A stretch of DNA of 64,000 nt, taken from positions 3,648,001-3,712,000 of the forward strand of contig OY968796.1 in assembly GCA_963695545.1 (NCBI GenBank). The letters are read 5' to 3'. The number at the start of each line of letters is the position of its first letter. The stretch's first letter is position 1. The notes under the pieces were generated by a model. That model saw only the letters and a program-made list of their open reading frames with translations, was not told the DNA's origin and searched no databases. This document shows positions 3,047 to 50,300 of the stretch, in pieces. Source of the stretch: Terriglobia bacterium (GTDB taxonomy: Bacteria > Acidobacteriota > Terriglobia > Acidiferrales > UBA7541). The position numbers and the translations under genes are program-made.

Positions 3047-3204
3047 GGTTGGGCCGGTTGGCGACTCCTCGAGAAAACGCGATTCGCAAATTCTAGCATG
3101 ATTGCCCGTGCCGCTGAATGCGGTTCCCCGCCCGGTTGCGGCGTTCGGAACCCAGGCGAGCCGGGGCGTAGTTTTCGAGCTAACGCCTCCCGTAGAATTG
3201 CGTC

Positions 3205-5208: not shown

Positions 5209-5540
5209 GCAACGCGACACGCGACGCGGCGAATGGCGCGGCCGAACGATTGCTTCTCCGCGCGTTGTGCCGCACGGAAACTTCCGGCACGCTGCGCGGC
5301 ACGATGCTTGGCGCGCTCGCGGCGCACCAATTCGTCGAGCCGGAGCACGAAGTGGTGTTCGGCGCGCTGCGCGATTTGCAGAGCGTCGGGCGCGTCGCGA
5401 CGCAAGCGCGCATGGAAGAGATGCTGCTGCGCCGCGGATTTCCCGATCTCGATCTCGCCGGCTACTTCGCCCCGACGGGGCGGGCGATCACGCTCACGGA
5501 AATTTCGGATGCGCTCCGCGCGATCGGGCATAGCAACTGA
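5205..5540 (+). CDS. Small hypothetical protein, possibly DnaB N-terminal-domain-like
   Basis: ATGA overlap with the upstream stop; AERLLLRAL...FVEPEHEVVFGALRDL resembles DnaB_N. Confidence 0.5.
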   Translation: MSNATRDAANGAAERLLLRALCRTETSGTLRGTMLGALAAHQFVEPEHEVVFGALRDLQSVGRVATQARMEEMLLRRGFPDLDLAGYFAPTGRAITLTEISDALRAIGHSN

Positions 5541-5559
5541 GCGCGGCGCGAACAAAACC

Positions 5560-5585
5560 GGGCGGAGGCAAGCTCCGCCCCTACA
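5560..5585 (-). repeat. GTAG-type REP hairpin
   Basis: GGGCGGAG-gcaag-CTCCGCCC-CTACA; near-identical copy at 10761-10786. Confidence 0.75.
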
Positions 5586-5590
5586 AAAAC

Positions 5591-6721
5591 TCAAAGATTC
5601 CATGCGTCGTAGCGCTTCGCCGTCGAGCGTGGCACGTCGGACGCGCGCGTGGCGGCGGGCGCGGCGTTAGCGCGCGGATTTGTCCAGCGGCCGGGGATGG
5701 CGGTGCCGCAATCGGGGCAACGGCCATCGCGGATGCGGTTTTGCAATACGTCGTGCCAGGCGCGATGCACGAGCACGCGGCGGCAGCCGGGGCAGATGGT
5801 GTCGCCGGCATCGGTTTTGATGTTGCCTTCGTAGACGTAGTGCAGTCCAGCGTCGAGCGCGATGCGGCGCGCGCGATCCAGAGTTTCGGGCGGAGTGCGC
5901 GGCTTATCGCGCATTTTGAAATCGGGATGAAACGCGGTGAAGTGCAACGGAATATCGGGGCCCAGATGCTCCAGGATCCAGTCGGCGAGCTCGCGCGTTT
6001 CGTCGGGATCGTCATTGAGTCCGGGGATCATGAGATTGGTGATCTCGAACCAAACTTGCGTTTCGTTCTTTAGCCACATGAGCGTGTCGAGGACGGGCTG
6101 CAAGTGCGTGAGCGTGGTGCGTCCGTAGAAACCTTCGGTGAAGGCTTTGAGATCGACGTTCGCGGCGTCAACGTGATCGTAAATATCGTGGAAGGCTTCG
6201 CGAGTGATGTAGCCGTTGGTGACCATCACGGTGGAAAGACCGGCGGCGTGCGCGGCGTCGCAGATGTCGACAACATACTCGCCCCAAATTGTCGGCTCGT
6301 TGTACGTGAACGCAATCGAGGGGCAGCCATTTTCGATGGCCAGCGCAACGACATCCTCGGGCGGGACGAATGTGGAATGCACTTGATCGTGCTTCGATTT
6401 CGAGATGTCCCAATTCTGGCAGAAGAAGCAGCCCATGTTGCAGCCCGCAGTGCCCATCGAAAAAACGCGCGTGCCGGGAAGAAAATGATTGAGAGGTTTT
6501 TTCTCAATGGGATCGATTTGAAGGGCGGCCGGAGAGGCGTAGCCGAGGCTGTAGAGTTTGCCGCCTTGATTCACGCGGATGAAACAGAAGCCGCTTTGTC
6601 CTTCGCCGATGTGGCAGTGGCGCGGGCAGAGGTAGCAATGAACGCGACCGGCGGGCTCGGGATTCCACCAGCGCGCTTCATGGAGCGATTCGGTCTTCTG
6701 GAAAATGCGTAGTTCTTCCAT
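5591..6721 (-). CDS. amrS: AmmeMemoRadiSam system radical SAM enzyme
   Basis: N-terminal CYLCPRHC, DPIEKKPL, radical SAM CNMGCFFC, FTYNEP, C-terminal CPGC/CPDC. Confidence 0.9.
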   Translation of the reverse strand: MEELRIFQKTESLHEARWWNPEPAGRVHCYLCPRHCHIGEGQSGFCFIRVNQGGKLYSLGYASPAALQIDPIEKKPLNHFLPGTRVFSMGTAGCNMGCFFCQNWDISKSKHDQVHSTFVPPEDVVALAIENGCPSIAFTYNEPTIWGEYVVDICDAAHAAGLSTVMVTNGYITREAFHDIYDHVDAANVDLKAFTEGFYGRTTLTHLQPVLDTLMWLKNETQVWFEITNLMIPGLNDDPDETRELADWILEHLGPDIPLHFTAFHPDFKMRDKPRTPPETLDRARRIALDAGLHYVYEGNIKTDAGDTICPGCRRVLVHRAWHDVLQNRIRDGRCPDCGTAIPGRWTNPRANAAPAATRASDVPRSTAKRYDAWNL

Positions 6722-7510: not shown

Positions 7511-7579
7511 TTCAACCTCCTAGTTCAACAGGATACCGCAATTCCCTTCCGCGGTGTCGGCCGCGAGGATTTGGAGACC

Positions 7580-7950
7580 GAGGGGGTATATATACCCCCA
7601 TACCAAATACGTAAAGTGATGAAAGCACAGGGGTTGCAGGGAAAGAGTGCGGATGAGTGTGAAAATACGTGTGTTGATATCTTGTATTTTCAGCGAGATG
7701 CGAACTCATTTGCAATCGATTGAAGACAAAGGGGTTGGAAGGGCGATTTCTCGCATGAAAGTGCAATTTGATCACGGCGAGTCGATGAAATTTCGCGGGG
7801 CGGGCAAAGCTGGCGCGGTCAGTTGCCGACGGGCTCAAGCGCGAACGTGTGCGTTTGCAAATCACCGGGCAAGGTTAGCACAATGCTAACACACTTGTCA
7901 ATATTATTGGTCGTGCATTCGAATAGGAGGGTGTGGAAATTCATTCGAAC
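7580..7950 (-). repeat. Non-coding promoter + motif-array + G-tract element, copy A
   Basis: Read on minus: GTTCGAA, CTATTCGAAT, TTGACA-18-TAACCT, motifs AACCCCTTTGTCTTCAATCGATTGC and AACCCCTGTGCTTTCATCACTTTAC, CGCATCTCGCTGA, terminal GGGGGTATATATACCCCC. Collinear with 37900-38320. Confidence 0.7.
7872..7901 (-). promoter_or_regulatory. Sigma70-type promoter (TTGACA-18 bp-TGcTAACCT)
   Basis: Perfect -35 at 7901-7896 and extended -10 at 7880-7872 on the minus strand. Confidence 0.6.
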
Positions 7951-8024
7951 AGTGGGAAACGAAGGACGCGACATTAAGGGATGAGGCGACACGCTCATGC
8001 CCAGCGGCGGGAAGTGACGGCTAA

Positions 8025-37899: not shown

Positions 37900-38320
37900 C
37901 GTTCGAACAGCTCACTTTCTATTCGAATAACCCATGACTAATATTATATCTATTGACATCACGTCGCCACCCATGCGATGATCTCTTGTGTCCCCGATAC
38001 TCACGCCCGCACCGCAATACGTATCGGCCACTCCCGCCGCCCGGCCCGGCCGCCCGCGTACAGTTTTCGCGTCTCGCCCAATTCCCTCGCGCGCAAATTC
38101 GATTGCTCAAATTCAGCCATTCGCGCACTTCTCGCGCTCCAACTCTTCCAGAATCAACACTTCTGAGCATTTCTCACTTTCCCGTATCTCGCTGATTGGC
38201 AAGACTTTGAACTCTACTAGAATCAACACTTCTGCGAATAAGGACTTAAAGTCGAGCAGAATCAACACTTCTGGCGCAAAGGACTTAAAGTCGTTTAGAA
38301 TCAGCACTTCCAAAAAACAC
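37900..38320 (+). repeat. Non-coding promoter + motif-array element, copy B (G-tract continues at 40946-40964 after the IS)
   Basis: GTTCGAA, CTATTCGAAT, TTGACA (37953); AGAATCA(A/G)CACTTC at 38150, 38219, 38258 and 38297 (39-bp period for the last three); CGTATCTCGCTGA at 38183. Confidence 0.75.
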
Positions 38321-38407
38321 GGTAATTATCCCTTGTGAACAAGGAAGGATTATAATGGGTGTGCGTGACAGGCAGTCGGAATGCGTTTGTGCCCAAGCTG
38401 AATAATC

Positions 38408-38740
38408 TTGACGCCGAGAAACCTCCATGCAATCTTCGCTAGCATGACAGCGGAACACAATCTTCTGGTAAGCCTGAGCGAAGTAAAGGCCTTGGTTCTT
38501 GAGTGCGCTCAATGCAGTTCAAGAAGCTCGATTCCTCCCGACAAACTTAACGATCTCCCGAATGCTTGTCCGCAAGGGCACCGATGGTTTATCGGAGAAC
38601 CTAGTGCAATCCGAAGCGGACAATCCCCTATTTTAGAATTTGCTAAAGCGATGCGCGAGGTTAGGGCACTCGACACCCACAAGCAGGCGATAGGGTTCAG
38701 GATGCTATTGGAATTCGAGGAACCAAAGCGATCGCAATGA
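38408..38740 (+). CDS. IS passenger: small putative Zn-ribbon protein
   Basis: ECAQC...CPQGH ligand pattern; ATGA overlap with the next ORF. Start may be the ATG near 38443. Confidence 0.6.
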   Translation: MTPRNLHAIFASMTAEHNLLVSLSEVKALVLECAQCSSRSSIPPDKLNDLPNACPQGHRWFIGEPSAIRSGQSPILEFAKAMREVRALDTHKQAIGFRMLLEFEEPKRSQ

Positions 38741-38925
38741 GAAAAGTGGGGACCGTTCTCGGCGTCTATCTCTCTTTTCTCATTATCCTGCTCGCCATAT
38801 CGTTTGTTTTCCCGACCACTGGTCCGGGGATATGGCAACCGATCTGGTTCGCGTTTGTGTGGTGTGGCTCCGTGTCGTTCGGTCTTACGTTCCTTTGGTT
38901 CCAGATTAAGCCGCTTTCCAAGTGA
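38737..38925 (+). CDS. IS passenger: 62-aa two-TM membrane protein
   Basis: Two hydrophobic helices; translationally coupled to the upstream ORF. Confidence 0.5.
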   Translation: MRKVGTVLGVYLSFLIILLAISFVFPTTGPGIWQPIWFAFVWCGSVSFGLTFLWFQIKPLSK

Positions 38926-38935
38926 CAGGTGCGTT

Positions 38936-39820
38936 CTACCAATCTGGGATTGGCACGATTGAAAAGAATTCGCGCAGATAATTGCCAGTGACCATGCTGT
39001 ACTTGAGCTTGTTTAGCTTTGATGCTTCAACGAAAGCCTTGAAGTCTTTCCGCGCCTCTAGCGGTTTCCCTGTTTTCACTTTGTCGATGTAATATTTGTT
39101 CCAGTGCCATGCGACGAAATCGGCCGCATCAGTTCCGCGTGCGTCTCCTTTGTCGATTATGTTGAAAGAGCTGACCTTAATGAGCGGTCCTGTGGTTGGA
39201 TTGTTCCTCATTTGTTCTACCGATTTCGCTATGTCTCCAATGCCGGGGTCGCCGCTCTCCATAAAATAAGCAAATGATTCCGAAGGGCACGTATCTTGTC
39301 GCCAAAAACCATTAAAAACCAGGCACATTTGGACGGCGTGAGAATGCACGCTTGTCCCATACAAATCTATGTATCCGGGCGGCGCGGTTTGCAGAAACTC
39401 AGCAGGGTTGAATGAGATTGTTCGCGCCATGTACATGTGGCGTCCGATCATTAACGGTATCCGCTTGGAATCCTGAGCGAACAATCGCTCGCGTTCTGAA
39501 TTGTTGCGCTTGAATTCTTCAGCGCCATTGTAAAAGTCCGTAGCATGGAAAGCGTCCGCTCCCCACGGTTTGAGCATTCTTTTCCATGGCCTGATAAATT
39601 TCCTATAGGCTGTTGGCCTAAAAACTACGCAGCCAACAGAGACGATTTCCTCCGTCTCGTCTTTTTTCGCGCCGCGATCTAGGAAAGCCTTAAGCATTAC
39701 TAGGAATCCGTTCCGCTGCGGGAGCACATCGTCCAACAAGGGGATGATGTCTTGGGACGGGCGTTTACGATCAACCGCGAACGCGCATTGACTTTGGGCG
39801 CACATCGGCGCACACTCCAT
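38936..39820 (-). CDS. IS passenger: DUF3800-like protein
   Basis: MLKAFLD, FHATDF, YFMESGD and AADFVAW motifs. Start uncertain (39697 possible). Confidence 0.65.
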   Translation of the reverse strand: MECAPMCAQSQCAFAVDRKRPSQDIIPLLDDVLPQRNGFLVMLKAFLDRGAKKDETEEIVSVGCVVFRPTAYRKFIRPWKRMLKPWGADAFHATDFYNGAEEFKRNNSERERLFAQDSKRIPLMIGRHMYMARTISFNPAEFLQTAPPGYIDLYGTSVHSHAVQMCLVFNGFWRQDTCPSESFAYFMESGDPGIGDIAKSVEQMRNNPTTGPLIKVSSFNIIDKGDARGTDAADFVAWHWNKYYIDKVKTGKPLEARKDFKAFVEASKLNKLKYSMVTGNYLREFFSIVPIPDW

Positions 39821-39825
39821 TCCGT

Positions 39826-39978
39826 ATGGAGCGTGAACCTTCCACGCCGCGAACGCCCAAGACGCTTACTCCCTCCGCCAAGACGAAGAAGCGTATGCAG
39901 CCGTTCACGCGCGATGCGTTCCGAAGCCTGCTAAATAAGGCGATTAAGACGCCCGCTCTGAAACCCTCGACAAGATAG
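39826..39978 (+). CDS. Possible 50-aa basic peptide overlapping the transposase 3' end (antisense)
   Basis: Hand translation MEREPSTPRTPKTLTPSAKTKKRMQPFTRDAFRSLLNKAIKTPALKPSTR*; below the ORF-track cutoff. Confidence 0.4.
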   Translation: MEREPSTPRTPKTLTPSAKTKKRMQPFTRDAFRSLLNKAIKTPALKPSTR

Positions 39979-40876
39979 CACGGAACTGTTGGTTCCCCAT
40001 AAATCTGCGGTTGTATCGGAAGGTGTATTCGTTGAGGTAGGTCTGTAGGTACTCCGGCGAAACAGAGTGATAGACGCCGCCGATTCCCCGCTTGATTAGA
40101 CTCCAGAATCCTTCCACGCTGTTGGTATGGATGTCGCCGCGAACGTACACGCCATCGCTGTGCTTGATGGTCCGGTGCCGATAGTCCAAGTGCTTGCCTT
40201 GTTTGTCGCGCAAGAATCCGATGCGGTTGTAGCTGCTCAGTTCGTCGGTATAGATCATGCTTCCCGGTACGATGTGCTTTTTGACCAAGCCCATCAATCG
40301 CTGCCCGGTAACGTCTGGAATGGCTTTGGCGATCACTTGGCCGCCGCGTTGGACAATCGCCACAACCGGAGTTTTCTTTTTGTCTCCGCGCATCGGACGC
40401 CCGCGCTCATACTTTCTGCGACCGCCCATGTAAGTCTCGTCTATCTCGACCGTTGGTCCCTCCAACTGCATGTCGCCTTCTTCGCTGAGTAGGGAGCGAA
40501 TCTGTCGGAACATGCGCCACGCGGTCTTGTAGGTCACGCCAGTCTCGCGCTGAATCTGTTTCGCGGAGATTCCGCAGCGGGTTGAACCCATCAAATAGGC
40601 CGCGTAGAACCAGAGCCGCAGCGAAGTCGAAGACTTTTGGAAGATGGTTCCGGCCAGCGGATAGATGTGATTCCCGCAATGATCGCAAGCGTATGCGGTG
40701 CGGCCAGTCACGCGATGGTGCTTGCGCTCGACGTGGCACTTCGCGCACTCAGTCACGCCGCCCGGATAGCGTTGCTCTTTGATGTATTCGAGGCACGCGC
40801 TGTCAGTCGGAAACTCTTTGTTGAACTCCTTGACGGTGTAGCGCAATTCTTTCGGTATGCTCTGTTTCACTTTCAT
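39944..40876 (-). CDS. IS1595-family (ISXO2-like) DDE transposase
   Basis: Zn ribbon CAKC..CDHC, HTH, VEIDETY, IYTDE, HTNSVEGFW, YLNEYTFRYN. Confidence 0.96.
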   Translation of the reverse strand: MKVKQSIPKELRYTVKEFNKEFPTDSACLEYIKEQRYPGGVTECAKCHVERKHHRVTGRTAYACDHCGNHIYPLAGTIFQKSSTSLRLWFYAAYLMGSTRCGISAKQIQRETGVTYKTAWRMFRQIRSLLSEEGDMQLEGPTVEIDETYMGGRRKYERGRPMRGDKKKTPVVAIVQRGGQVIAKAIPDVTGQRLMGLVKKHIVPGSMIYTDELSSYNRIGFLRDKQGKHLDYRHRTIKHSDGVYVRGDIHTNSVEGFWSLIKRGIGGVYHSVSPEYLQTYLNEYTFRYNRRFMGNQQFRAILSRVSERAS

Positions 40877-41108
40877 TGGCCACCTTCCATACACAGAGCC
40901 TACCAAACGCCCTACTTGTTGTCAAGGGATAATTACCAAAAACACCCGGGGGGGGAGGGGGGGATATTGCCAACTCAGGAAGTGTCAGCATTTGGTTCCA
41001 CTGTCTGGGACGCGCCGGGCCGCGCCAATTTGCGGTGCACGCGCAACTTACTGTAATATCGGCGCTTCGCGTTTGACCGTTTGGCGCGGCTGTGCGAGCA
41101 TTGCTCCG

Positions 41109-41184: not shown

Positions 41185-42213
41185 ATGCTCGTCGTGATGC
41201 AAACCGGTGCGCCGGAACAGCAGGTCAAAGACGTTTGCGAGCGCATCCAATCGCTCGGTTTCGAAGCGCACCCCATCTTCGGCGCGTTCAAGACCGTCAT
41301 CGGCGTCACCGGCGACACGCGCCGCCTCGATATTGGCTCGCTTGAATCGCTCCCCGGAGTCGCCGAATGCATCATCATCGGCAAGCCCTACAAGCTCGTC
41401 AGCCGTGAGTTCAGCAAGCAAGACACCATCGTGCGCGTGCCCACGCCGCTGGGCGAAGTCCTGATCGGCGGCGAGGCCGTGGCCATGATCGCCGGTCCCT
41501 GCGCGATTGAAACGCGCGAGCAAGCCTTCGCCATCGCCGCGCCGCTGGCTCTCGCCGGCGTGCACCTTTTCCGCGGCGGCGCCTATAAACCGCGCACCTC
41601 GCCGTACAGTTTTCAGGGCCTCGCCGTGCCCGGCCTCGAAATTCTCACTGCGGTTCGCGATAAATTTGGAATGGGCATCGTCACCGAAGCCGTGGACAAC
41701 GAAGGCGTCGATTTCGTCGAGCAGTACGCCGACGTGATTCAGATCGGCGCGCGCAACATGCAGAATTATTCCCTGCTCAAGCGCGCCGGCCGCGCCCACA
41801 AACCCGTAATGCTCAAGCGCGGCTTGTCCGCCACGCTCGATGAACTTCTGATGGCCGCCGAATACATCGCCTCCGAAGGCAACACCCAGATCATGCTATG
41901 CGAACGCGGCGTGCGCACTTTCGCCGACCACTCGCGCAACACGCTGGATCTCGCCGTCGTCCCCGCGGCCAAAGCGCTCAGCCACCTACCCGTCATCGTG
42001 GACCCAAGCCACGGCACCGGTCAGCGCCGCAAAGTGCTTCCGCTTGCGCGCGCCGCAGTCGCCGTCGGCGCCGATGGCCTGATGATCGAAGTCCACAACG
42101 CGCCCGATCGCGCGCTCTCGGATGGCGTGCAATCGATTCTCCCCGAAGAATTCGTGCAACTCCGCGACGAGTGCGCCCAGATCGCGCACGTCCTGCATCG
42201 CACAATGAATTAG
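41185..42213 (+). CDS. aroF: 3-deoxy-7-phosphoheptulonate synthase (type I-beta, N-terminal ACT-like domain)
   Basis: [40 protein letters not shown]. Confidence 0.95.
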
Positions 42214-42256
42214 TTTTTTGGTTTCTCGTTCTTTGACAACTTGTGAAGCCCGCGCG

Positions 42257-43057
42257 TCACGCACGGCGCCCGGTATGCAGAGCAACGATTCCGCCCGTCC
42301 AGCGCTCGAAGCGCACCGCGTCGAACCGCGCGCGTTCCATCTGCGCCGCCAACTCTTCGGGGCTCGGGAATCGCCCCACCGATCGCGGCAAGTAAGAATA
42401 CGCCGCGGCGTTCCCCGAAATCGCTCCGCCAACCGTCGGCAGTATGCGGCGAAAATAAAAGCGATACAGCGCGCCGAATAATTTCCCTTTCGGCTCGGAA
42501 AACTCCAGGATGCCGATTTCCCCGCCCGGCCGCAACACGCGACGAATTTCTTTCAACCCCTCGTCGTAATTCGCCAGGTTGCGAAATCCAAATGCCGTCG
42601 TGACGAGATCAAACGTCGCATCGCCAAACGGCAAATGCAGCGCGTCGGCCTCGACGAACTCGATCGCGCCACGCGCGGCGCTCTCGCTCCGCGCCGCGGC
42701 CTTGCGACGCGCAATCGCCAGCATCTCCGGCGAGAAATCAGCGCCGGTGATTTGCGCCGCAGAACCTTCCCGCGCGAGCGCAAACGCCAGATCGCCCGTG
42801 CCGCAGCACAAATCGAGCACGCGCGCCTCCGGCCGAGCCAGGATCGCGGCGAAGCGACGCGCGACGCGACGCCGCCAAACGTTGTCGAGGCGCCCCGAGA
42901 GAAAATGGTTCAGGAAATCGTATCGCGGCGCGATCCCGCTGAACATCTCGCGCACGCGCCGCGAAGTTTCCTGCTCGTCGGAGGCGCCCTCGAAGCGCGT
43001 GCCACTCAGTGGGGCTTCGGTATCTGGAGTTCGGTCGGGCATGATGAGCGCGGACAA
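42257..43057 (-). CDS. ubiE: UbiE/MenG quinone biosynthesis methyltransferase
   Basis: MFSGIAPRYDFLNH, LDLCCGTGD, FGFRN, ILEFS, AYSYLP.S. Confidence 0.9.
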   Translation of the reverse strand: MSALIMPDRTPDTEAPLSGTRFEGASDEQETSRRVREMFSGIAPRYDFLNHFLSGRLDNVWRRRVARRFAAILARPEARVLDLCCGTGDLAFALAREGSAAQITGADFSPEMLAIARRKAAARSESAARGAIEFVEADALHLPFGDATFDLVTTAFGFRNLANYDEGLKEIRRVLRPGGEIGILEFSEPKGKLFGALYRFYFRRILPTVGGAISGNAAAYSYLPRSVGRFPSPEELAAQMERARFDAVRFERWTGGIVALHTGRRA

Positions 43058-44152
43058 TTACCGAATGGGGTGCGCTTCGAGTGTCGACAAGATGCGTCGG
43101 ACCGCTTTCTCCGAAATGTCGTCGAAGGTTTTCGCGTGACCTATTCTCGTCGGCAAAACGAAACGCAAACGCCCGTCGCGCGATTTCTTGTCCGCGCGCA
43201 TTGTCTCGATCAGGCGGTCCGCCGTCACTTTGGGCCAAGGAGGCAAGAGGCCGAGTCTCGCGATCAAATGCGCGATGCGTTCAGAATCGCGCGATGGCAA
43301 AATGCCATATCCCGCCGCGAGCCAAATGGCGCATTGCATGCCCCAGCCGACGGCTTCGCCGTGGCGGAATCGCCGGTAGCGCGTGACGGTTTCGAGCGCA
43401 TGCCCGAACGTATGGCCAAAATTCAAAATCTCGCGCAGACCGGAATCTTTTTCGTCGCGCGCAACCACGCGCGCCTTCAGCGCCGCGCTGCGGCACAAAA
43501 CATATTCGAGCGCCGGCGGTTTGCGCGAGAGTACGGCAGCGAGATTTCGCTCGAGGTAACGGAACAATTCGGCATCGCCGATCACGCCGCACTTCACGAT
43601 CTCGTACAGGCCCGAGCGATACTCGCGCCGCGGCAAACTGCGCAGCAAATCGATGTCCGCGAGCACCAGTCGCGGCGGATAAAACGCTCCGACTTGGTTC
43701 TTCCCTTCCGGCAAATTCACGCCGGTTTTTCCGCCGATCGAACTATCGGCCATGGCCACAACCGTCGTCGGAATGTGCACCACACTGACGCCGCGCAAAT
43801 AACTTGCGGCCACGAAGCCGGCGACGTCGCCCACGACACCTCCGCCGACGGCCACGAGCAGCGCGCGCCGGTCGGCGCCGGCGCGCACGAGCGCGCGGCA
43901 CAACTTCTCCACGGTCGCGAGATTTTTCTTCGCCTCGCTGTCGTCAAAGAGAATTGGATTCTTCGCAGCCGCGCCAAGCGCTTTCGTGAGCGCGGCGCGC
44001 GCGTGCTTCCAAACGCGCGGCGAGCTCAACACAAAGATTGGCGCGGACGGACCTGCGATGCGGCGCAATTCCCGGCGCGCTTGGCGCAGAGCCCCGCGCC
44101 CTAGCACGTAGCGATACGAACCTGTCGACGATTTAATCAGGATGCTTCGCAT
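43058..44152 (-). CDS. aroB: 3-dehydroquinate synthase
   Basis: GGGVVGD.AGF, PTT...DSSIGGKTG, LNFGHTFGHALE, HGEAV. Confidence 0.96.
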   Translation of the reverse strand: MRSILIKSSTGSYRYVLGRGALRQARRELRRIAGPSAPIFVLSSPRVWKHARAALTKALGAAAKNPILFDDSEAKKNLATVEKLCRALVRAGADRRALLVAVGGGVVGDVAGFVAASYLRGVSVVHIPTTVVAMADSSIGGKTGVNLPEGKNQVGAFYPPRLVLADIDLLRSLPRREYRSGLYEIVKCGVIGDAELFRYLERNLAAVLSRKPPALEYVLCRSAALKARVVARDEKDSGLREILNFGHTFGHALETVTRYRRFRHGEAVGWGMQCAIWLAAGYGILPSRDSERIAHLIARLGLLPPWPKVTADRLIETMRADKKSRDGRLRFVLPTRIGHAKTFDDISEKAVRRILSTLEAHPIR

Positions 44153-44157
44153 GATCG

Positions 44158-45132
44158 TTACTGAAACTTTTGCTCGAGCGCGAAAAACGATTCGAGAAAA
44201 ACATGGCCGGTAATTCCGAGACTCCGCGGATCGATTTTATCAAGCGTGTCGTTCACCGTGTGCCAGATCGGCGACGCGCCCTCGAAGTCGATCACATCGC
44301 ACGCGGCCGCGCCGCGTTTGAGAAAAGGATCGTGGTCGTCGGTGATCTCCAACTTTTCGTTGACGAACACGTTGCCGTAGCCGAGTCGCGCCGCGGTGCT
44401 CCAAACCAAATCCGTGAGCCACGGCGTGGAATCGGATTCGCGTTTGATTTGCAAATTGTAGATTCCGATCATGTCCGCCAGCACCATGGCTTTGAGATGC
44501 GCAAGATCGCCCGAGTTGGCCATCTCGGCGGCGAGTTCGCGGCTGCCGTAAGTGTTGTCGGGATCCGCCCAATCCCAATTGAACGCCTCTTCGCCGTCGA
44601 AAAAAGCGATCCACAAAGTGAGCTGATTCTTGCGAGCGCAGAGCAACCGCGCGAGCTCCAGCATCACCGCCGTGCTCGAAGCGCCATCGTCGGCGCCAAC
44701 GAAATTCGCCAGCGTCTTTGTGTCGTAGTGCGAGGCGAACATCACGATGTTAGGGCTGGCACCGGGGATTTTCACCACGATATCTTTCATGGCCACGTCG
44801 CCGATCGGTGTCTGCGCGTGAAAGTCGTCTTCCTCGACCGGGCAGCCGTAACTTTTGAGCTGCGCGATGATGTACTGCTGCTGGCGATGATTCGCGTCGC
44901 TGCCGGCGGGGCGCGGACCGAAGGCGACGAGCTTCGCGACTTGATCGTAAGCGTAGGCGGCGTCAAAACCATCGAGTTGCGCCGGCGGAGGCGCTTGCGG
45001 CGGCGCGGCTGCTTGCTGATTCGCCGAAGACACGGTGCCGGAGGCCGCTTGGCCTCCGCCGCACGCGGCGAGCGTTACGCCGAGCGTTACGCCGAGGGCC
45101 GCTAATGCCAGCCACATCGCCGCGCGGCGCAT
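44158..45132 (-). CDS. M28-family peptidase / glutaminyl-cyclase-like lipoprotein
   Basis: LAAC lipobox; HYDTK, GADDGAS, FDGEE, DMIG, DDH, WHT..D; TAATG overlap with the tatC stop. Confidence 0.88.
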   Translation of the reverse strand: MRRAAMWLALAALGVTLGVTLAACGGGQAASGTVSSANQQAAAPPQAPPPAQLDGFDAAYAYDQVAKLVAFGPRPAGSDANHRQQQYIIAQLKSYGCPVEEDDFHAQTPIGDVAMKDIVVKIPGASPNIVMFASHYDTKTLANFVGADDGASSTAVMLELARLLCARKNQLTLWIAFFDGEEAFNWDWADPDNTYGSRELAAEMANSGDLAHLKAMVLADMIGIYNLQIKRESDSTPWLTDLVWSTAARLGYGNVFVNEKLEITDDHDPFLKRGAAACDVIDFEGASPIWHTVNDTLDKIDPRSLGITGHVFLESFFALEQKFQ

Positions 45133-45953
45133 TAGCTCGCTCCCTGATCGGCGATGGATTTCGCGCGGCGCTTTTTCCGCACCACCATCGCGGCGACCGC
45201 GATGCCGAGGACGTAGAGAAGAAACATGGGAGCCATGAAAACCAGCATCGTGGTGGCATCCGGCGTCGGTGTGATCACGGCGGCCAGAATGGTGATGATC
45301 AGAACCGCGTAGCGAAAATTCTTCCACAGAAAAGCCGGCGTGACGATATTGAACAGGGCCAGAAAATAAATCACCACGGGCATTTCAAAAACCAGGCCGA
45401 GCCCGAGCAACACGACCAAGATCAAGCTGAAATATTCGTCGATCGAAATCAGCGGCTGAATAGGCCCTTGCGATCCGAGGCCGATCAGGAATTTCAGCAT
45501 ATACGGCAACATCACGAAATAACCGAAAGCGAGTCCGCACATGAACAGAGCAAAGGACGAAAAAAGGAACTTCACGATGGCGCTGCGCTCATGCTTATAG
45601 AGCCCCGGCGCGACAAAAAGCCAGATTTCATACAAGACCCAAGGCGACGCGATGACCAGGCCGATATAAACGCCGAGCGTGATGATCAAACTGATGTAGC
45701 CCGTGGGGCTGGTGTAAATCAGATGGTCTTCGAGATGCGCGCTGCGCAAAGCCTGCAGCATCGGACGGATAATGAATCCAATAACGTATTTCGAGACGGA
45801 GAGACCGATGACCATTCCAATCGCAATGCCGAACATCGCGTGAATGATTCGCGTGCGGAGATCGTACAGATGCTCGAGGAACGACATGCGGCCGCCGGGC
45901 TCTTCGAGAAAAGCGAAGCGAGACTTTTTTTCAGGCGTGGGAGTGTCCGTCAC
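45132..45953 (-). CDS. tatC: Twin-arginine translocase subunit C
   Basis: MSFLEHL.DLR.R, FVAPGLY.HE, FEMP, ITPTPD. Confidence 0.96.
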   Translation of the reverse strand: MTDTPTPEKKSRFAFLEEPGGRMSFLEHLYDLRTRIIHAMFGIAIGMVIGLSVSKYVIGFIIRPMLQALRSAHLEDHLIYTSPTGYISLIITLGVYIGLVIASPWVLYEIWLFVAPGLYKHERSAIVKFLFSSFALFMCGLAFGYFVMLPYMLKFLIGLGSQGPIQPLISIDEYFSLILVVLLGLGLVFEMPVVIYFLALFNIVTPAFLWKNFRYAVLIITILAAVITPTPDATTMLVFMAPMFLLYVLGIAVAAMVVRKKRRAKSIADQGAS

Positions 45954-45969
45954 TGTGCGCTGAGGACCA

Positions 45970-46518
45970 TCACTTCTCTGTCATGGCTCGATCGGAGGGC
46001 GTCTCGTGCGCGTCCGCTCCGGAAATTGGCGCGTGCTCGTCGGCGGGCGAAGGTGGCGCCTCGGGATTCGCATGCCGCGCATCCGGATCAGGAATAATCG
46101 GCGGCGACGCCGGCGCTGATTCGGGCGCGGACTCCGACGCCGTTTCCGGCGTCGGCGCCGGCGCGACGGTGTTCTCGCGATCTTCGGGCTCGGCGATCAT
46201 CGGCGCCTGTTCCGCTGCGGGCGAATCGGCGCTTGCGGCCGCGGGCAGTTCGGGCGCGGCGCTCGTAGCCGCTGGCAGAGCGGGTATGGCGGCCCTCGCG
46301 GCGGCGTCAGCCGCCTCTTTCGACAAGCGCTCTTTCTCGCGCAGGTGGCGGTCAATTTCGCGCATTTCGTCTTCGAGCGTGGTGCGAAAATCCGTGGAGA
46401 CTTTGCGGAAATCGGCCATAACTTTGCCGAGTACACGCGCAACTTCAGGCAGCTTTTCGGGTCCCAAGACCACGAGGGCTACAAGAAAAATGATGATCAG
46501 ATGAGGAACGCTAAGCAT
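45970..46518 (-). CDS. tatB: Twin-arginine translocase subunit B (TatA/B family)
   Basis: IIFLVALVVLGPEKLPEVAR; long disordered tail; upstream of tatC. Confidence 0.85.
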   Translation of the reverse strand: MLSVPHLIIIFLVALVVLGPEKLPEVARVLGKVMADFRKVSTDFRTTLEDEMREIDRHLREKERLSKEAADAAARAAIPALPAATSAAPELPAAASADSPAAEQAPMIAEPEDRENTVAPAPTPETASESAPESAPASPPIIPDPDARHANPEAPPSPADEHAPISGADAHETPSDRAMTEK

Positions 46519-46659
46519 GACGCGGGTCCACGAGGGCGAGAGATGCGCCGCCGCGGTTCTCCGTGTGAATCATAGAAGAGGGTACGAGGCGAGTCAATTC
46601 CGCGCGACGCCGCGCGCTCCGCACATTGCGATTCGCGCACCGCGCTCGATCGGGGCGCG

Positions 46660-46688
46660 TTGACGGGTGGATAGGCTTCCGGTACGAT
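46660..46688 (+). promoter_or_regulatory. Sigma70 promoter of the tRNA pair
   Basis: TTGACG-17 bp-TACGAT, 7 nt before tRNA-Val. Confidence 0.75.
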
Positions 46689-46695
46689 CAGCTTG

Positions 46696-46771
46696 GGGCG
46701 GTTAGCTCAGCGGTTAGAGCGTCCGGTTTACACCCGGAAGGTCGAGTGTTCAAATCACTCACTGCCCACCA
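46696..46771 (+). tRNA. tRNA-Val(TAC)
   Basis: GGGCGGT/ACTGCCC acceptor stem, anticodon arm TCCGG-TTTACAC-CCGGA, TTCAAAT loop, encoded CCA. Confidence 0.95.
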
Positions 46772-46795
46772 CTAGCAGCCGTCATCACAAAATGC

Positions 46796-46872
46796 GGGGC
46801 CGTAGTTCAGCCGGTTAGAACGCCTGCCTGTCACGCAGGAGGTCGCGAGTTCGAGCCTCGTCGGCCCCGCCA
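46796..46872 (+). tRNA. tRNA-Asp(GTC)
   Basis: GGGGCCG/CGGCCCC acceptor stem, CCTGC-CTGTCAC-GCAGG anticodon arm, TTCGAG, CCA. Confidence 0.96.
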
Positions 46873-47309
46873 AATACTTTTTCGCTTTCAATTCCGCGTT
46901 TATGAGGCCGCCTGCGCCCGGCCGACATGAAGGCTTGGGCACGAGGTGCTTTTCAAGCGGCGATCATCGTTCTGGCAGCCTCCACTCAATGCTAGCCCCA
47001 CGCGTGCTACCGCGTGCGCAAGCCAAAATCCCGATCTGATGTCTCTTAAGGTTCAGTTTCCAAGAGATTCCCGCCCCAGCTGTCCTTAGAGAGTAAGTTT
47101 GGATCATAAGCCCCGATTTGCAGAAGGGGCCGGCCCCGAGAACAGCCTGGAAACGCTGTCTCGCCGACATTAGTTACCCCGCACTCGCTCGGCGAACGAA
47201 TTCGCAACCAAGACAGTTCGGTTCTGAGTGCCGACTCGATTTGGATTGCGCACGTCTGGTCATAGAGATCGTCGTTGGCAAGACTTGCGTTGCCAGGATT
47301 TACTGAGGA

Positions 47310-50300
47310 GTGGTTATGCTCGTTTCCGAAGTACCGATGGTCAGTTCTTACGACTATCGGCTCGTGGTTCTATCGGTATTTATAGCGATGCTGGCGTCGT
47401 ACGCGGCGCTCGATTTGTCTGGCCGGGTTGCCTCGGCGCGCGGCCGGGCGCGGTTGCTGTGGCTGAGCGGCGGGGCCACCGCGATGGGAATCGGAATCTG
47501 GTCGATGCATTACATCGGGATGCTGGCCTTCCGCTTGCCGGTTCCGGTGCAATACGACTGGCCGACCGTGTTGCTATCGCTTCTGGCGGCTGTGCTCGCG
47601 TCTGCAGTGGCGCTGTTTGTCGTCAGCCGCGCCAAGATGGGACTTCTTCATGCCGCCGTCGGAAGTATCTTTATGGGCGGGGGCATCGCGGCCATGCACT
47701 ATATCGGAATGGCGGCGATGCGCGCTCCCGCGCTGTGCCACTATTCTCCTCCGATCGTTAATTTATCGGTCGTGCTTGCGATCGTGATTTCTTTCGTGGC
47801 TTTGTGGCTGACGTTTTACTTTAGAGGCGTCAGATCGCCGGGGGTCGGGCTGAAAATTGTCTGCGCGATGATCATGGGCGCGGCGATCCCGGTGATGCAC
47901 TACACGGGCATGGCCGCCGCCAGCTTTACGCCCGCGGTGCTGAGCCGCCAGGAGCTATTGCACTCCGTAAGTGTCTCTATACTCGGCGCGGCCGGAATCA
48001 GTGTCGTGACCTTCAACGTTCTCGGACTGGTGTTCCTGACGTCACTGGCCGACCGACGTTTTTCCGCACAGACAATGGAGCTTCGCTCGAACGAGGAACG
48101 CTACCGCCAGATTGTGGGAACCGCGCTTGATTCATTTATTGAATCAGATCCGGAAGGCATCGTCACGGACTGGAACGCGCAAGCAGAGGCCACGTTCGGA
48201 TGGTCACACGCTGAAGCCGTCGGGCAAAGCCTTTACGAGACCATTGTGCCGAGCCGCCATCACGCCGAGCGCAAGCAGATTGTTGCGGAATTGCTTGCCT
48301 CGGGAGAAGGCTCAGGGATGAGAAAGCGTGTCGAGACCACAAGATTGAGCAGAAACGGACGCGAATTTCCGATAGAACTCAGTATGTCTGTGATCCGCGC
48401 GGGCGAGGTACTCCGCTTCGGCGCATTTCTGCGCGACATCACCGAACGCAAGCGAGCGGAGGAGGCCCTCTCTGACGAGCGCAGGCTATTGCGCATATTG
48501 ATCGATAACATGCCGGACTACATTTACGTGAAGGACGCCGAGAGCCGGTTCGTGGTGGTGAACCGAGCGGTCGCCAAACTCGTGGGAGCGAAGAGCCCCG
48601 AGGACCTGCTCGGAAAAACCGATTTCGACTATTTTCCGAAAGAAATCGCGACAGCCTTCTATTCCGATGAGCAAGCCATCCTGAAATCCGGGGAGCCATT
48701 GCTGAATCGGGAGGAAGAGTCGGTGGACGCCGCAGGAAACGCAAAGTGGAACTCGACATCGAAGGTTCCCTGGCGCGACAAGCTGGGCCACTTGATCGGA
48801 ATCATGGGGATTGGGCGGGACATTACCTGGAGCAAGGCTTCTGAAGAAGCGTTGAAACACGCGAAGGAGGCTGCAGAGGCGGGGAGCCGGGCGAAAAGCG
48901 AGTTTCTAGCGAACATGAGCCATGAGATCCGCACTCCGCTTAACGGCGTTATCGGGATGACCGATCTGGCGCTGGAAACCAACCTTACGCCGGAACAACG
49001 AGAATATTTGGAGACCGTGAAACTCTCGGCGGATTCCCTGCTCACGGTAATCAACGACATTCTGGACTTCTCCAAAATCGAGGCGGGAAAAGTAGATTTG
49101 GAGCTGGAGGATTTCAACCTGCGCGACAGCCTGGAAGCAACGCTGAAGACACTCGCACTGAGGGCGGACGAGAAGGGACTGGAACTTCTGTGTGAAATCG
49201 CGCCCTTAGTTCCCGAGATCGTGCGGGGCGATTCCAACCGCTTGCGCCAGGTGGTGATTAACCTTCTGGGGAACGCCATCAAATTCACAGATCGGGGTGA
49301 GGTGGCGCTGAATGTGCAAGTCGAGGCCGAGGACGGTGACGACCGAATTCTGCACTTTGCGGTAACGGACTCGGGAATTGGAATTCACCCGGAGAAACAG
49401 AAAGTGATCTTTCAGCCTTTTGCCCAGGCGGATAACTCAACGACGCGAAAATACGGCGGAACCGGGCTGGGATTAACCATCTCGCGGAGGCTGGTGGGGT
49501 TGATGGACGGGAAAATGTGGGTGGAAAGCGAGCTCGGCCGAGGAACCAAATTTCATTTCACCGCGCGGCTTAAAACGTCGCAGAAACCGATTGAAGTCGG
49601 AACGATCGCCCCGCCGGAGACCTTGCGCGACGTCAGAGTGCTGATTGTCGACGACAATCAAACGAACCGGAGAATTCTTGAGGGAATGCTGAAACGCTGG
49701 GACATGAAATCGACGTCCGTGGAAAGCGGGGAGCAAGCGTTGACGCAACTTGTTTCAGGCCACGACCGAGGAGAGGCGTACGCGCTGATCCTGACGGACA
49801 TGCACATGCCGCAGATGGACGGCTTCGCGCTGATCGAACAAATAAGGCAAAGGTCGGAGCTATCCGCGGCGGTGATCGTGATGCTCACGTCGGCGGGCCA
49901 TCGAGGGGACGGAGCGCGCTGTCAGGAGCTGGGCGTTGCGGCGTATCTCTTGAAACCCATCCGGCAATCCGAGTTACGGCAGGCAATTGCCCAAGTGCTT
50001 GGCGCGCGATCGCAACACGGCGCAATCCCCTTGGTCACGCGATACTCCTTGCAGGATGCCCGAGACCCCGCGAGCTACTTGCGTGTGCTGGTGGCGGAGG
50101 ACAATCACGTTAACCAACTACTCGCAACTCGATTGCTCGAGAAGAGAGGGCACCGCGTGGTGATGACCGCCAACGGCCGCGAGGCGCTTGAAGCGCTCGC
50201 GAAAAACAGTTACGACCTCGTCTTGATGGATGTGCAGATGCCGGAAATGGACGGAATTCAGGCGACTACTGCGATCCGCGAAAAAGAGAAGGAGAAAGGC

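What the first reader, a model, noticed from the sequence alone, without database searches (positions are those of the whole stretch)
37900..38320. Candidate undescribed non-coding element family (boxes, promoter, leader, motif array, G-tract) present twice in the window
Seen in sequence: this region (+) and 7580-7950 (-) share collinear blocks despite low overall identity. In order these are GTTCGAA; CTATTCGAAT (10/10); GAC(C/T)AATA; ATTGACA, an 18-bp spacer ending TGC and a -10-like hexamer (TAACCT in A, weaker GATGAT in B); TG(A/C)TCAAATT; TCCAAC(C/T)C opening the first ~23-bp motif; CG(C/T)ATCTCGCTGA (12/13; 38183 and 7702-7690); CAAGA; further motif copies; and a terminal G-tract. The two loci lie between unrelated genes and share no ORF. 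Inference: block-wise conservation suggests selection on a transcribed 300-350-nt RNA or a multi-site nucleoprotein platform, possibly mobilised in trans. I do not recognise it as a named RNA family, REP, CRISPR or IS end.
Basis: partly seen in the sequence, partly recalled or inferred. Interest (0 to 1): 0.85.

Follow-up and report, generated by a model that had tools for sequence, protein, structure and literature searches.

The report
Dispersed cassettes launching local DNA replication
A soil bacterium carries about 110 evenly spaced copies of an undescribed promoter-plus-repeat cassette, and the strand bias of silent mutations flips a few kilobases beyond almost every copy, so the cassettes likely launch short local rounds of DNA copying away from the normal origin.

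Summary
Confirmed and much larger than reported. The two loci belong to 110 evenly spaced cassettes in this 4.16-Mb acidobacterial chromosome. Each has TTCGAA boxes, a sigma-70 promoter, a leaderless frame kept open through the array (95/100), palindromic units and a G-rich end. Copy A is split by an IS1595. It is not a structured RNA (no covariation) and not a MITE (no TIR or TSD). Silent-site GC skew flips origin-like about 4 kb downstream in 105/110 copies and fades over about 10 kb. tRNAs and other promoters do not do this, and orthologous genes follow their own genome's cassettes. The flip recurs at 9/11 cassettes in three relatives and, as predicted beforehand, at 20/20 sites of a second cassette family. 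The oriC axis is intact. Best reading (0.5): transcription-launched, local, oriC-independent replication. Earlier notes of this scan found the same family elsewhere in this genome and mostly read it as packaging sites; one noted the skew flips. My tests weaken the packaging reading: no terminase was found in 5/5 near-complete relatives that carry cassettes or the cassette gene. Ten literature searches found no description.

The parts
37901..37928 (+). Copy A: two TTCGAA palindromic boxes (GTTCGAA, CTATTCGAAT), likely operator of a cassette-specific regulator
   Evidence: 46 of 49 genomic TATTCGAATA lie in cassettes and 2 more in 5'-only copies
37953..37982 (+). Copy A: sigma-70-type promoter, TTGACA, 18-bp spacer, extended -10 TG-C-GATGAT (predicted)
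37988..38338 (+). Copy A: leaderless open frame (GTG) running through leader and array; it now ends in the IS end
38138..38320 (+). Copy A: array of imperfect palindromic units (A-type; AGAATCA(A/G)CACTT at 38150, 38219, 38258, 38297; inverted unit 38183-38195), then an A-tract
38321..40937 (-). IS1595-family element inserted into copy A (TIR GGTAATTATCCC; 8-bp duplication AAAAACAC at 38313-38320 and 40938-40945; transposase 39944-40906; unassigned passenger ORF 38936-39820). Not part of the cassette
   Evidence: (PF12762 E=1e-38, PF12760)
40946..40963 (+). Copy A: displaced 3' end, CC-G8-A-G7
7917..7950 (-). Copy B: TTCGAA boxes (7950-7944, 7926-7917) flanking ATTTCCACA (7940-7932), the word also found in this genome's dnaA promoter
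7872..7901 (-). Copy B: promoter TTGACA, 18-bp spacer, TG-C-TAACCT (predicted)
7512..7865 (-). Copy B: leaderless open frame (GTG) through the array and G-tract, 117 codons
7605..7739 (-). Copy B: B-type array, three forward units and one inverted unit inside the AAGAGTGCGC...CGCACTCTT arms
7582..7599 (-). Copy B: 3' end GGGGGTATATATACCCCC
3000..6000 (.). Skew switch zone downstream of copy B: top-strand silent-site skew -0.26 (0-3 kb), +0.10 (3-6 kb), +0.48 (6-9 kb)
42000..48000 (.). Skew switch zone downstream of copy A: -0.60 (36-39 kb), -0.14 (42-45 kb), +0.23 to +0.29 (48-54 kb)

Best explanation
The two loci are copies of a 110-member cassette (operator boxes, strong promoter consensus, open leader frame, palindrome array) beyond which the strand bias of silent mutations flips like at a replication origin, and each cassette likely launches short, two-way, oriC-independent DNA synthesis in a zone 0-10 kb downstream. 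Shown: the anatomy, the open frame, even spacing, and the directional skew kernel with its controls. Inferred steps: (1) a dedicated regulator on the TTCGAA boxes, with DnaA at the ATTTCCACA word in about 40% of copies, gates the promoter. (2) A ribosome on the leaderless frame carries RNA polymerase through the array past Rho; the peptide is irrelevant. (3) A protein on the array, most likely the CCCH zinc-finger protein encoded behind 4 of the 110 copies and acting in trans, makes the polymerase, or a machine loaded with it, run on regardless of host gene direction. (4) At a random point, mean 5-7 kb on, a stalled complex or R-loop is converted by restart proteins into two forks that run about 10 kb. 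(5) This DNA is recombined back into the lineage often enough to set the local mutation bias. Routine replication still uses oriC. The cassettes are probably phage-derived selfish elements that over-replicate themselves and their neighbours.
For: Skew: at four-fold sites on the cassette strand it is -0.33 at -6..0 kb, zero near +4 kb and +0.17 at +10 kb, the same in co- and anti-oriented genes. The jump is 0.417 against 0.018+-0.035 for 200 random intergenic anchor sets. Downstream exceeds upstream in 105/110 copies. Cassette position plus strand explains R2 0.47, against 0.01-0.06 for random positions and 0.21-0.22 for shuffled strands. Negative controls: 49 tRNA/tmRNA clusters add nothing; 8/29 non-cassette consensus promoters show the rise. 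Other genomes: cassette-free G165 and G078 are flat (sd 0.07 and 0.06, against 0.20 here and 0.23 in G164). The jump is positive at 9/11 cassettes in G151, G164 and G167 (p=0.0095). It was predicted in advance (note) and seen at 20/20 sites of a second family in G172 and G201. The skew follows the cassettes, not the genes: r=0.81 for 78 orthologs here; for the 54 whose G151 orthologs lie far from G151 cassettes, r=0.77 here and 0.21 (p=0.12) in G151. It is local: an additive kernel fits better than whole-chromosome fork collision (R2 0.42-0.44 vs 0.36-0.37), and a cassette-free 170 kb in G151 has mean skew -0.02. An exponentially spread two-way start gives R2 0.407 of a free 0.437 and beats fragment-end models. 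GC content at silent sites stays 0.80-0.84. Transcription through the array appears selected: the frame is open in 95/100 copies (other frames 9 and 13), in two registers of the array, and in 25/25 copies whose next gene is convergent. The switch lies at +3.65 kb whichever way the next gene points. Spacing CV is 0.56 against 0.97 for intergenic nulls (minimum 0.73 in 3000) and is lowest at +2 to +4 kb (p=0.034).
Against: Everything about replication is read from base composition; no fork, transcript or protein binding was observed. The fit leaves about half of the explainable variance (0.44-0.47 of a ceiling of 0.80-0.88). Five copies here and 2/11 elsewhere do not show the rise. Jumps near 490, 946, 1683 and 2240 kb have no cassette. 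An RNase HI-like gene with the catalytic acidic residues is present, which should remove unprotected R-loops. The G-rich strand is not T-rich, so plain deamination does not explain the bias. The G-tract is absent from the four second-family sites read, and those genomes have no hit to the zinc-finger profile, so steps 3-4 cannot rest on either part alone. G151 has cassettes and flips but no zinc-finger hit (83% complete). The DnaA-like word does not change jump size (p=0.18). The switch statistics use 73 of 110 copies chosen for isolation and a jump above 0.25.
Confidence: 0.5

Rival explanations
1. The cassettes are packaging start sites. The zinc-finger protein is a small-terminase mimic that brings the resident phage-like cluster's TerL to the array, and the skew comes from recombination of the transferred fragments in recipients. 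This is the reading of most earlier notes of this scan.
For: A single-copy head/packaging cluster with TerL (phrog_979 E=5e-41) and a major capsid protein is at G000 3384-3418 kb, with TerL in 19/36 family genomes. The zinc-finger tail matches a small cluster ORF in both genomes compared (IWDMPGPDRE in both proteins here; IWDMPGPNPE and VWDIPGPDPD in G153). The second family occurs in three TerL-positive genomes. Spacing of about 38 kb is headful-like (inference).
Against: Zinc finger and TerL do not co-occur positively in 36 family genomes (7 both, 12 and 12 one only, 5 neither; OR 0.24, p=0.054). Five 98-100% complete genomes with cassettes or the zinc-finger gene have no Terminase_6N hit, and only 1/5 has the capsid gene. 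G165 has TerL but no cassettes and flat skew. No fragment-end model is among the six best kernel fits. The tail motif is in 60/188 fetched homologs. No Pfam or PHROG terminase hit for any of 39 members. Packaging does not explain the open frame.
Confidence: 0.2
2. The cassettes are the routine origins: the chromosome is normally copied from about 110 sites, as in eukaryotes and some archaea, and oriC polarity is a relic or serves segregation only.
For: Long gaps show a steady decline, e.g. +0.58 to -0.65 over 65 kb. Skew on the oriC axis is -0.0006. Silent-site GC content is flat. Switch points are evenly spaced. The single rRNA operon points head-on to the oriC fork.
Against: The additive local model fits better, and a 220-kb gap in G151 shows no sawtooth. 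Cassette-free relatives also lack global skew, so its absence says little. dnaA and a box-plus-trio spacer are intact. 54.4% of 2545 genes and 181/268 GGGNAGGG words follow the dnaA axis, while genes do not follow cassette polarity (48%; 39% where it is strongest).
Confidence: 0.12
3. The cassettes direct recurrent breaks or nicks a few kb downstream, and resection with repair synthesis, not replication forks, leaves the mirror-image bias.
For: The local decay of about 10 kb fits resection tracts. The G-poor strand is slightly T-rich, as G damage on 3' tails would give.
Against: There is no dip in silent-site GC content near cassettes and no sequence-context preference. No nuclease family was found for the cassette protein. 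The sign equals the usual origin sign (PMC3269012, passages).
Confidence: 0.1
4. The cassettes are host regulatory promoters or a structured RNA family, and the skew is a by-product of their transcription or of where they insert.
For: 80/110 have a co-oriented next gene. The promoter is a near-perfect consensus with a private operator.
Against: The skew is independent of gene direction and strongest upstream, where the cassette transcribes nothing. tRNA and other promoters give none. Orthologs without a cassette lack it. There is no covariation. The frame stays open in front of convergent genes.
Confidence: 0.05

Closest known systems
Constitutive stable DNA replication (cSDR, oriK) of E. coli; R-loop priming as in ColE1 (PMC4287441, passages and section 8 read)
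   Same: oriC-independent forks that start from transcription at scattered, non-fixed points
   Different: cSDR needs loss of RNase HI or RecG and has no defined sequence; here a conserved cassette marks each zone in a genome with an RNase HI-like gene, and the effect is local
Run-off replication of Bartonella with its gene transfer agent (PMC2697382, passages read)
   Same: extra, phage-derived, bidirectional local replication beside a normal oriC, in a genome with a domesticated packaging cluster
   Different: one origin with its own phage helicase over hundreds of kb there; about 110 gene-less dispersed sites with 10-kb reach here, kept also where no terminase is found
pac and pseudo-pac sites, PICI/SaPI small terminases, lateral transduction (PMC8575950, PMC8575938, PMC10996546: search listing only; details recalled)
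   Same: a directional site, a small trans-acting protein whose tail resembles a phage-cluster protein, in-situ bidirectional replication near the site
   Different: no prophage or integrase at the sites, no positive co-occurrence with TerL, and a leader frame under selection
Bacterial oriC basal unwinding system (PMC8287927, passages read)
   Same: a DnaA-box-like word identical to those in the dnaA promoter in 45/105 copies
   Different: no clear DnaA-trio enrichment, and the switch lies kilobases away from the box
MITEs, REP/BIME and other dispersed intergenic repeats (recalled)
   Same: many intergenic copies whose positions differ between species
   Different: no terminal inverted repeats or target duplications, own promoter and open frame, even spacing, 50-90% divergence

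Membership tests
Structured non-coding RNA (Rfam) | match to a curated family | tested here: not met
   only two tRNAs in the window; best hits in 5 cassette loci E=0.19 and 0.26, far below cut-off
Structured non-coding RNA (Rfam) | conserved fold with compensatory changes | tested here: not met
   no consensus fold in 81 B-type copies; 0 of 15 A-type pairs switch Watson-Crick type; z -1.45 and -0.51
IS / MITE | terminal inverted repeats and target-site duplication | tested here: not met
   longest direct and inverted flank matches 6.89 and 6.69 against 6.82 and 6.67 for shuffled pairings (105 copies); old copies may have lost a duplication
IS / MITE | cognate transposase in full-length copies | tested here: not met
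   the only gene carried (4 of 110 copies) is a 139-170-aa CCCH protein without a transposase hit
oriC (DnaA-dependent) | DnaA boxes | tested here: inconclusive
   0/105 exact, 45/105 with one mismatch (shuffles 11.6, max 21); 36 of 74 genomic ATWTCCACA lie in cassettes; the word may instead be a half-site of an 11-bp direct repeat
oriC (DnaA-dependent) | DnaA-trios within 16 bp of a box | tested here: inconclusive
   17/105 against 8.7 (max 16) in 30 shuffles; present in the dnaA-dnaN spacer
oriC (DnaA-dependent) | skew switch at the site itself | tested here: not met
   switch spread over 0-10 kb downstream, zero near +4 kb
cSDR / oriK | loss of RNase HI or RecG | tested here: inconclusive
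   an RNase HI-like ORF is present (weak Pfam hit, E=1.6e-6); RecG was not searched
cSDR / oriK | R-loop-primed initiation | not testable with these tools
   needs DRIP-seq and RNase H sensitivity
ColE1 / mitochondrial CSB II R-loop origin (CSB II features recalled) | priming at the G-tract in the direction of transcription | tested here: not met
   skew stays negative for 4 kb past the G-tract; GGGNAGGG-type runs in 17/110 copies; no G-tract in 4 second-family sites read
pac site with small terminase (phage, PICI, GTA) | TerS family or fold of the cassette protein | tested here: inconclusive
   no terminase hit; fold searches without a significant match; the tail is shared with a small cluster ORF
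pac site with small terminase (phage, PICI, GTA) | a partner TerL in the same genome | tested here: not met
   present here, but not found with two queries in 5 of 5 near-complete carriers tested
pac site with small terminase (phage, PICI, GTA) | packaging starts at the site | not testable with these tools
   needs particle DNA
Bartonella-type run-off origin | phage replication genes at the amplification peak | tested here: not met
   flanking genes are unrelated host genes; one Rep-like gene lies in the cluster (E=3e-4) and in 10/36 family genomes
LexA (SOS) regulon | operator shared with lexA and recA | tested here: not met
   lexA has an ATTCGCC direct repeat and neither gene has TTCGAA; 0/105 cassettes have exact GTTC-N7-GTTC; only the ATTCG core is shared
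CRISPR | identical direct repeats with unique spacers and cas genes | not tested
   no cas search was run; the units are degenerate, partly inverted and the linkers are conserved between copies

The most novel reading that the evidence does not exclude
These acidobacteria copy a substantial part of their chromosome from a hundred dispersed, slowly mobile, transcription-launched origins: a natural multi-origin bacterium whose origins are selfish phage-derived cassettes, of at least two sequence families, spaced by interference.
Probability: 0.2. Interest if true: 0.97.

Novelty: categorically new. Interest (0 to 1): 0.85.

Why it matters
Bacterial chromosomes are taken to start replication at one origin, and fixed oriC-independent start sites (oriK) have never been pinned down (PMC4287441, passages). 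Here a defined 400-bp sequence predicts origin-like mutation polarity at about 110 places, in several genera of an abundant soil group, and a second family does the same. That makes natural oriC-independent initiation testable with a cloned cassette, explains why these genomes lack a readable GC skew, and points to a kind of selfish element that spreads by local over-replication instead of transposition.

Tried and rejected
Expression: no RNA holder listed. Four DNA runs of one study gave contigs only; the IS-skipping joint there probably comes from other copies. ZF-TerL complex: no verdict, 0.31 against a mark of 0.32. Fold searches of the ZF model (pLDDT 73.6): nothing at E<=0.001 in viral proteins, best Z 6.8 in the PDB. 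Weak leads only: MCM10 zinc finger E=0.16, zf-TRM13_CCCH in 9/39 members, unnamed Acidobacteriota clusters. ZF was not found in viral contigs or phage records. The 14 viral matches to the 3'-end pattern were chance hits without cassettes. The model of the Rep-like protein covered its unconserved C-terminal part by my slip and was not used; its N-terminal part resembles unnamed viral clusters, with Lin1244_N at 0.87 as a lead. The search for the small cluster ORF found only G153, so tail co-variation rests on two genomes. Ideas rejected: any strong promoter as the trigger; a switch at the first convergent gene (rho 0.14, p=0.25); SOS control; mini-oriC; CSB II-like priming at the G-tract; a context-specific deaminase. 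A dif-like pattern found nothing. Ten literature searches returned no description of the family; the library lacks most subscription papers, and no supplements were read.

Full report
Observation. The pairwise likeness is modest (score 42 against 26.7+-4.2, p=0.006), but the family is unmistakable in the 4.16-Mb genome: 99 loci from the two copies alone and 110 cassettes by profile, after two IS-split halves were dropped from 112 hits. Homolog names and clusters point to Acidobacteriota, and the runs holding the DNA are soil metagenomes. The 38-kb copy is split by an IS1595-family element at 38321-40937, and its G-tract lies at 40948-40963. Two more A-type cassettes carry similar insertions.

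Anatomy. Upstream lie one to three TTCGAA boxes; 46 of 49 genomic TATTCGAATA words are in cassettes. In 45 of 105 anchored copies there is a DnaA-box-like word, mostly ATTTCCACA, the same word as in the dnaA promoter (shuffles 11.6, max 21). The promoter is TTGACA with an extended -10, and ATG or GTG follows 34-36 bases after the -35, so the message is predicted leaderless. From that codon the frame is open to the G-tract in 95 of 100 assignable copies (other frames 9 and 13; 7 stops against 214 and 247). It reads the array in two different registers, so translation, not the peptide, appears selected. It is open in 25 of 25 copies whose next gene is convergent. The array holds three to four degenerate palindromic units at a 39-bp step, in an A-type (19 copies, including the 38-kb copy) and a B-type (81, including the 7.6-kb copy). 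Four copies carry a 139-170-aa CCCH zinc-finger gene behind the G-tract. It has 2353 relatives at E<=0.001 among 50%-identity representatives and no named family. There are no terminal inverted repeats or target duplications, no Rfam match and no covariation.

Distribution. Gaps average 37.8 kb with CV 0.56, against 0.99 for uniform and 0.97 for intergenic nulls; strands are 56 to 54. The exact promoter pattern gives 77 hits here and at most one in each of 150 other phylum genomes (7 had one). The 3' end is multi-copy in 5 of 5 congeners and in 3 of 31 other family genomes. The zinc finger is in 19 of 36 family genomes and 7 of 15 of a sister family. The 7.6-kb copy sits before the same DinB gene in 2 of 5 congeners and is absent in 3, where the upstream gene differs. 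The 38-kb site is empty in 4 of 4 readable congeners. Copies are therefore old and change place slowly; how they move is not shown.

The main property. At four-fold sites, on the cassette strand, GC skew is -0.33 over the 6 kb upstream, crosses zero near +4 kb, peaks at +0.17 to +0.22 near +10 kb and fades by -25 and +30 kb, alike in genes of both directions. The jump is 0.417 against 0.018+-0.035, and 105 of 110 copies show it. Position plus strand explains R2 0.47, position alone 0.21-0.22 and random sites 0.01-0.06. Both window copies show it. tRNA clusters and 29 other consensus promoters do not. A decayed box at 757 kb lies at one otherwise unexplained jump; four other jumps have no cassette.

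Other genomes. G164, a complete genome of another genus, has the same anatomy and local skews of +-0.4. Of 11 cassettes in stretches of G151, G164 and G167, 9 show the rise (mean 0.20 against 0.02+-0.07, p=0.0095). G165 and G078, without cassette hits, are flat. Orthologs follow their own genome's cassettes. Three genomes without zinc-finger or profile hits (G166, G172, G201) still showed jumps in 80-kb samples. At one jump in each I found a second dispersed family with TCTAATCG...ATTAGAA arms. I wrote down the prediction and fetched 20 further sites, 11 of 17 matches in G201 and 9 of 9 in G172. All 20 were negative upstream and higher downstream, with the same offset; no separate null was run, and the sites come from two genomes. 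This family shares the unit GCAACTCA(C/T)TGAAAA(C/T)AAA with the B-type. It has a promoter-like sequence in three of the four sites read and no G-tract in any of the four.

What kind of process. It is local: an additive kernel beats whole-chromosome fork collision (R2 0.42-0.44 against 0.36-0.37), and a long cassette-free stretch of G151 is flat. The oriC axis is intact: dnaA with boxes and trios, 54.4% of genes and 181 of 268 GGGNAGGG words in its direction, while genes ignore cassette polarity. The best parametric fit is a two-way start spread exponentially downstream (mean 7 kb, decay 10 kb), independent of the next gene's direction. Silent-site GC content is flat and no context is preferred, which fits a change of fork direction better than added damage. 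Against: the G-rich strand is not T-rich, an RNase HI-like gene is present, about half of the explainable variance remains, and nothing was observed in cells.

Mechanism. I commit to transcription-launched local replication at 0.5. In this reading a gated strong promoter fires, and a ribosome carries the polymerase through the array. An array-bound factor lets it run on, a stalled complex or R-loop becomes two short-lived forks, and the products are recombined back. All five steps are inferred. The packaging reading (0.2) has real support: a domesticated TerL-capsid cluster and a tail shared between the zinc finger and a small cluster ORF in two genomes. But zinc finger and TerL do not co-occur positively (OR 0.24, p=0.054), no terminase was found in 5 of 5 near-complete carriers, and TerL without cassettes gives no skew. 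The two readings are compatible in origin: a phage-derived module that now acts without its motor. Routine multi-origin replication gets 0.12, break and resection 0.1, and plain regulation or a structured RNA 0.05.

Comparison with what is known. It works like cSDR (PMC4287441, passages and section 8) and like Bartonella run-off replication (PMC2697382, passages), but fails or leaves open their defining features. It is not an oriC by the criteria of PMC8287927 (passages). Multi-origin patterns have been guessed from skew for a few bacteria without defined sites (PMC3269012, passages). The lateral-transduction papers were seen as search listings only; CSB II, KOPS, Chi, MITE and REP features are recalled. 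Ten searches found no description of the family. Eight earlier AI notes describe it on other stretches of this genome, so it is not new to this scan. New here are the controls, the locality test, the ortholog test, the counter-evidence on terminase and the second family.

Verdict. A real, undescribed element class with a strong and reproducible origin-like footprint; mechanism inferred. Categorically new, interest 0.85.

Noticed in passing
G201 and G172, L193-L212 near position 8000 in motif orientation; G166 L080 region (C3:547.3-548.0 kb): Second dispersed cassette family (TCTAATCG-N11-ATTAGAA arms, shared GCAACTCAYTGAAAA unit, no G-tract in the four sites read) with the same skew flip at 20 of 20 tested sites; its trans-acting protein is unknown.
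   Followed up: partly
G000:C1 about 1601500-1601800 (-): The single rRNA operon points head-on to the fork expected from the dnaA locus; an atypical cassette at 1606846(+) lies 5 kb away, and its upstream polarity would be co-directional with the rRNA.
   Followed up: no
G000:C1 3384000-3418400 (L006-L008): Single-copy podovirus-like head and packaging cluster (TerL, capsid, lytic transglycosylase, Rep-like gene), interrupted by an IS; TerL orthologs in 19 of 36 family genomes suggest a domesticated gene transfer agent.
   Followed up: partly
window 38321-40937; G000 245.2-247.7 kb and 343.6-346.8 kb: IS1595-type elements sit inside 3 of 19 A-type arrays, a possible insertion hot spot; the window copy carries a 294-aa passenger ORF (38936-39820) without a Pfam hit.
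   Followed up: partly
G000:C1 2228200-2228540 (L149) and 2212050-2212460 (L150): The lexA promoter has an ATTCGCC-N4-ATTCGCC direct repeat and recA a degenerate version: a likely variant SOS box for this lineage.
   Followed up: no
G000 genome-wide: The most polar octamers on the dnaA axis are GAAGGGAA (136:37) and GCAGGGAA (178:69), a likely KOPS variant.
   Followed up: no
G000:C1 757177-757437, 1386901, 1205300, 1310880: Partial cassettes: upstream box only (757 kb, at a skew jump), promoter deleted (1387 kb, jump still strong), and two with the 5' module but no array.
   Followed up: partly
G000 near 490, 946, 1683 and 2240 kb: Upward skew jumps without a detectable cassette.
   Followed up: partly
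window 46696-46869: tRNA-Val and tRNA-Asp genes within the switch zone of copy A; tRNAs do not explain the skew genome-wide.
   Followed up: yes
G000 5' flanks of many cassettes, e.g. 149933(-), 2549023(+), 2900102(+): GTAG-type REP-like repeats often abut the cassette's 5' end; enrichment over other intergenic regions was not tested.
   Followed up: no
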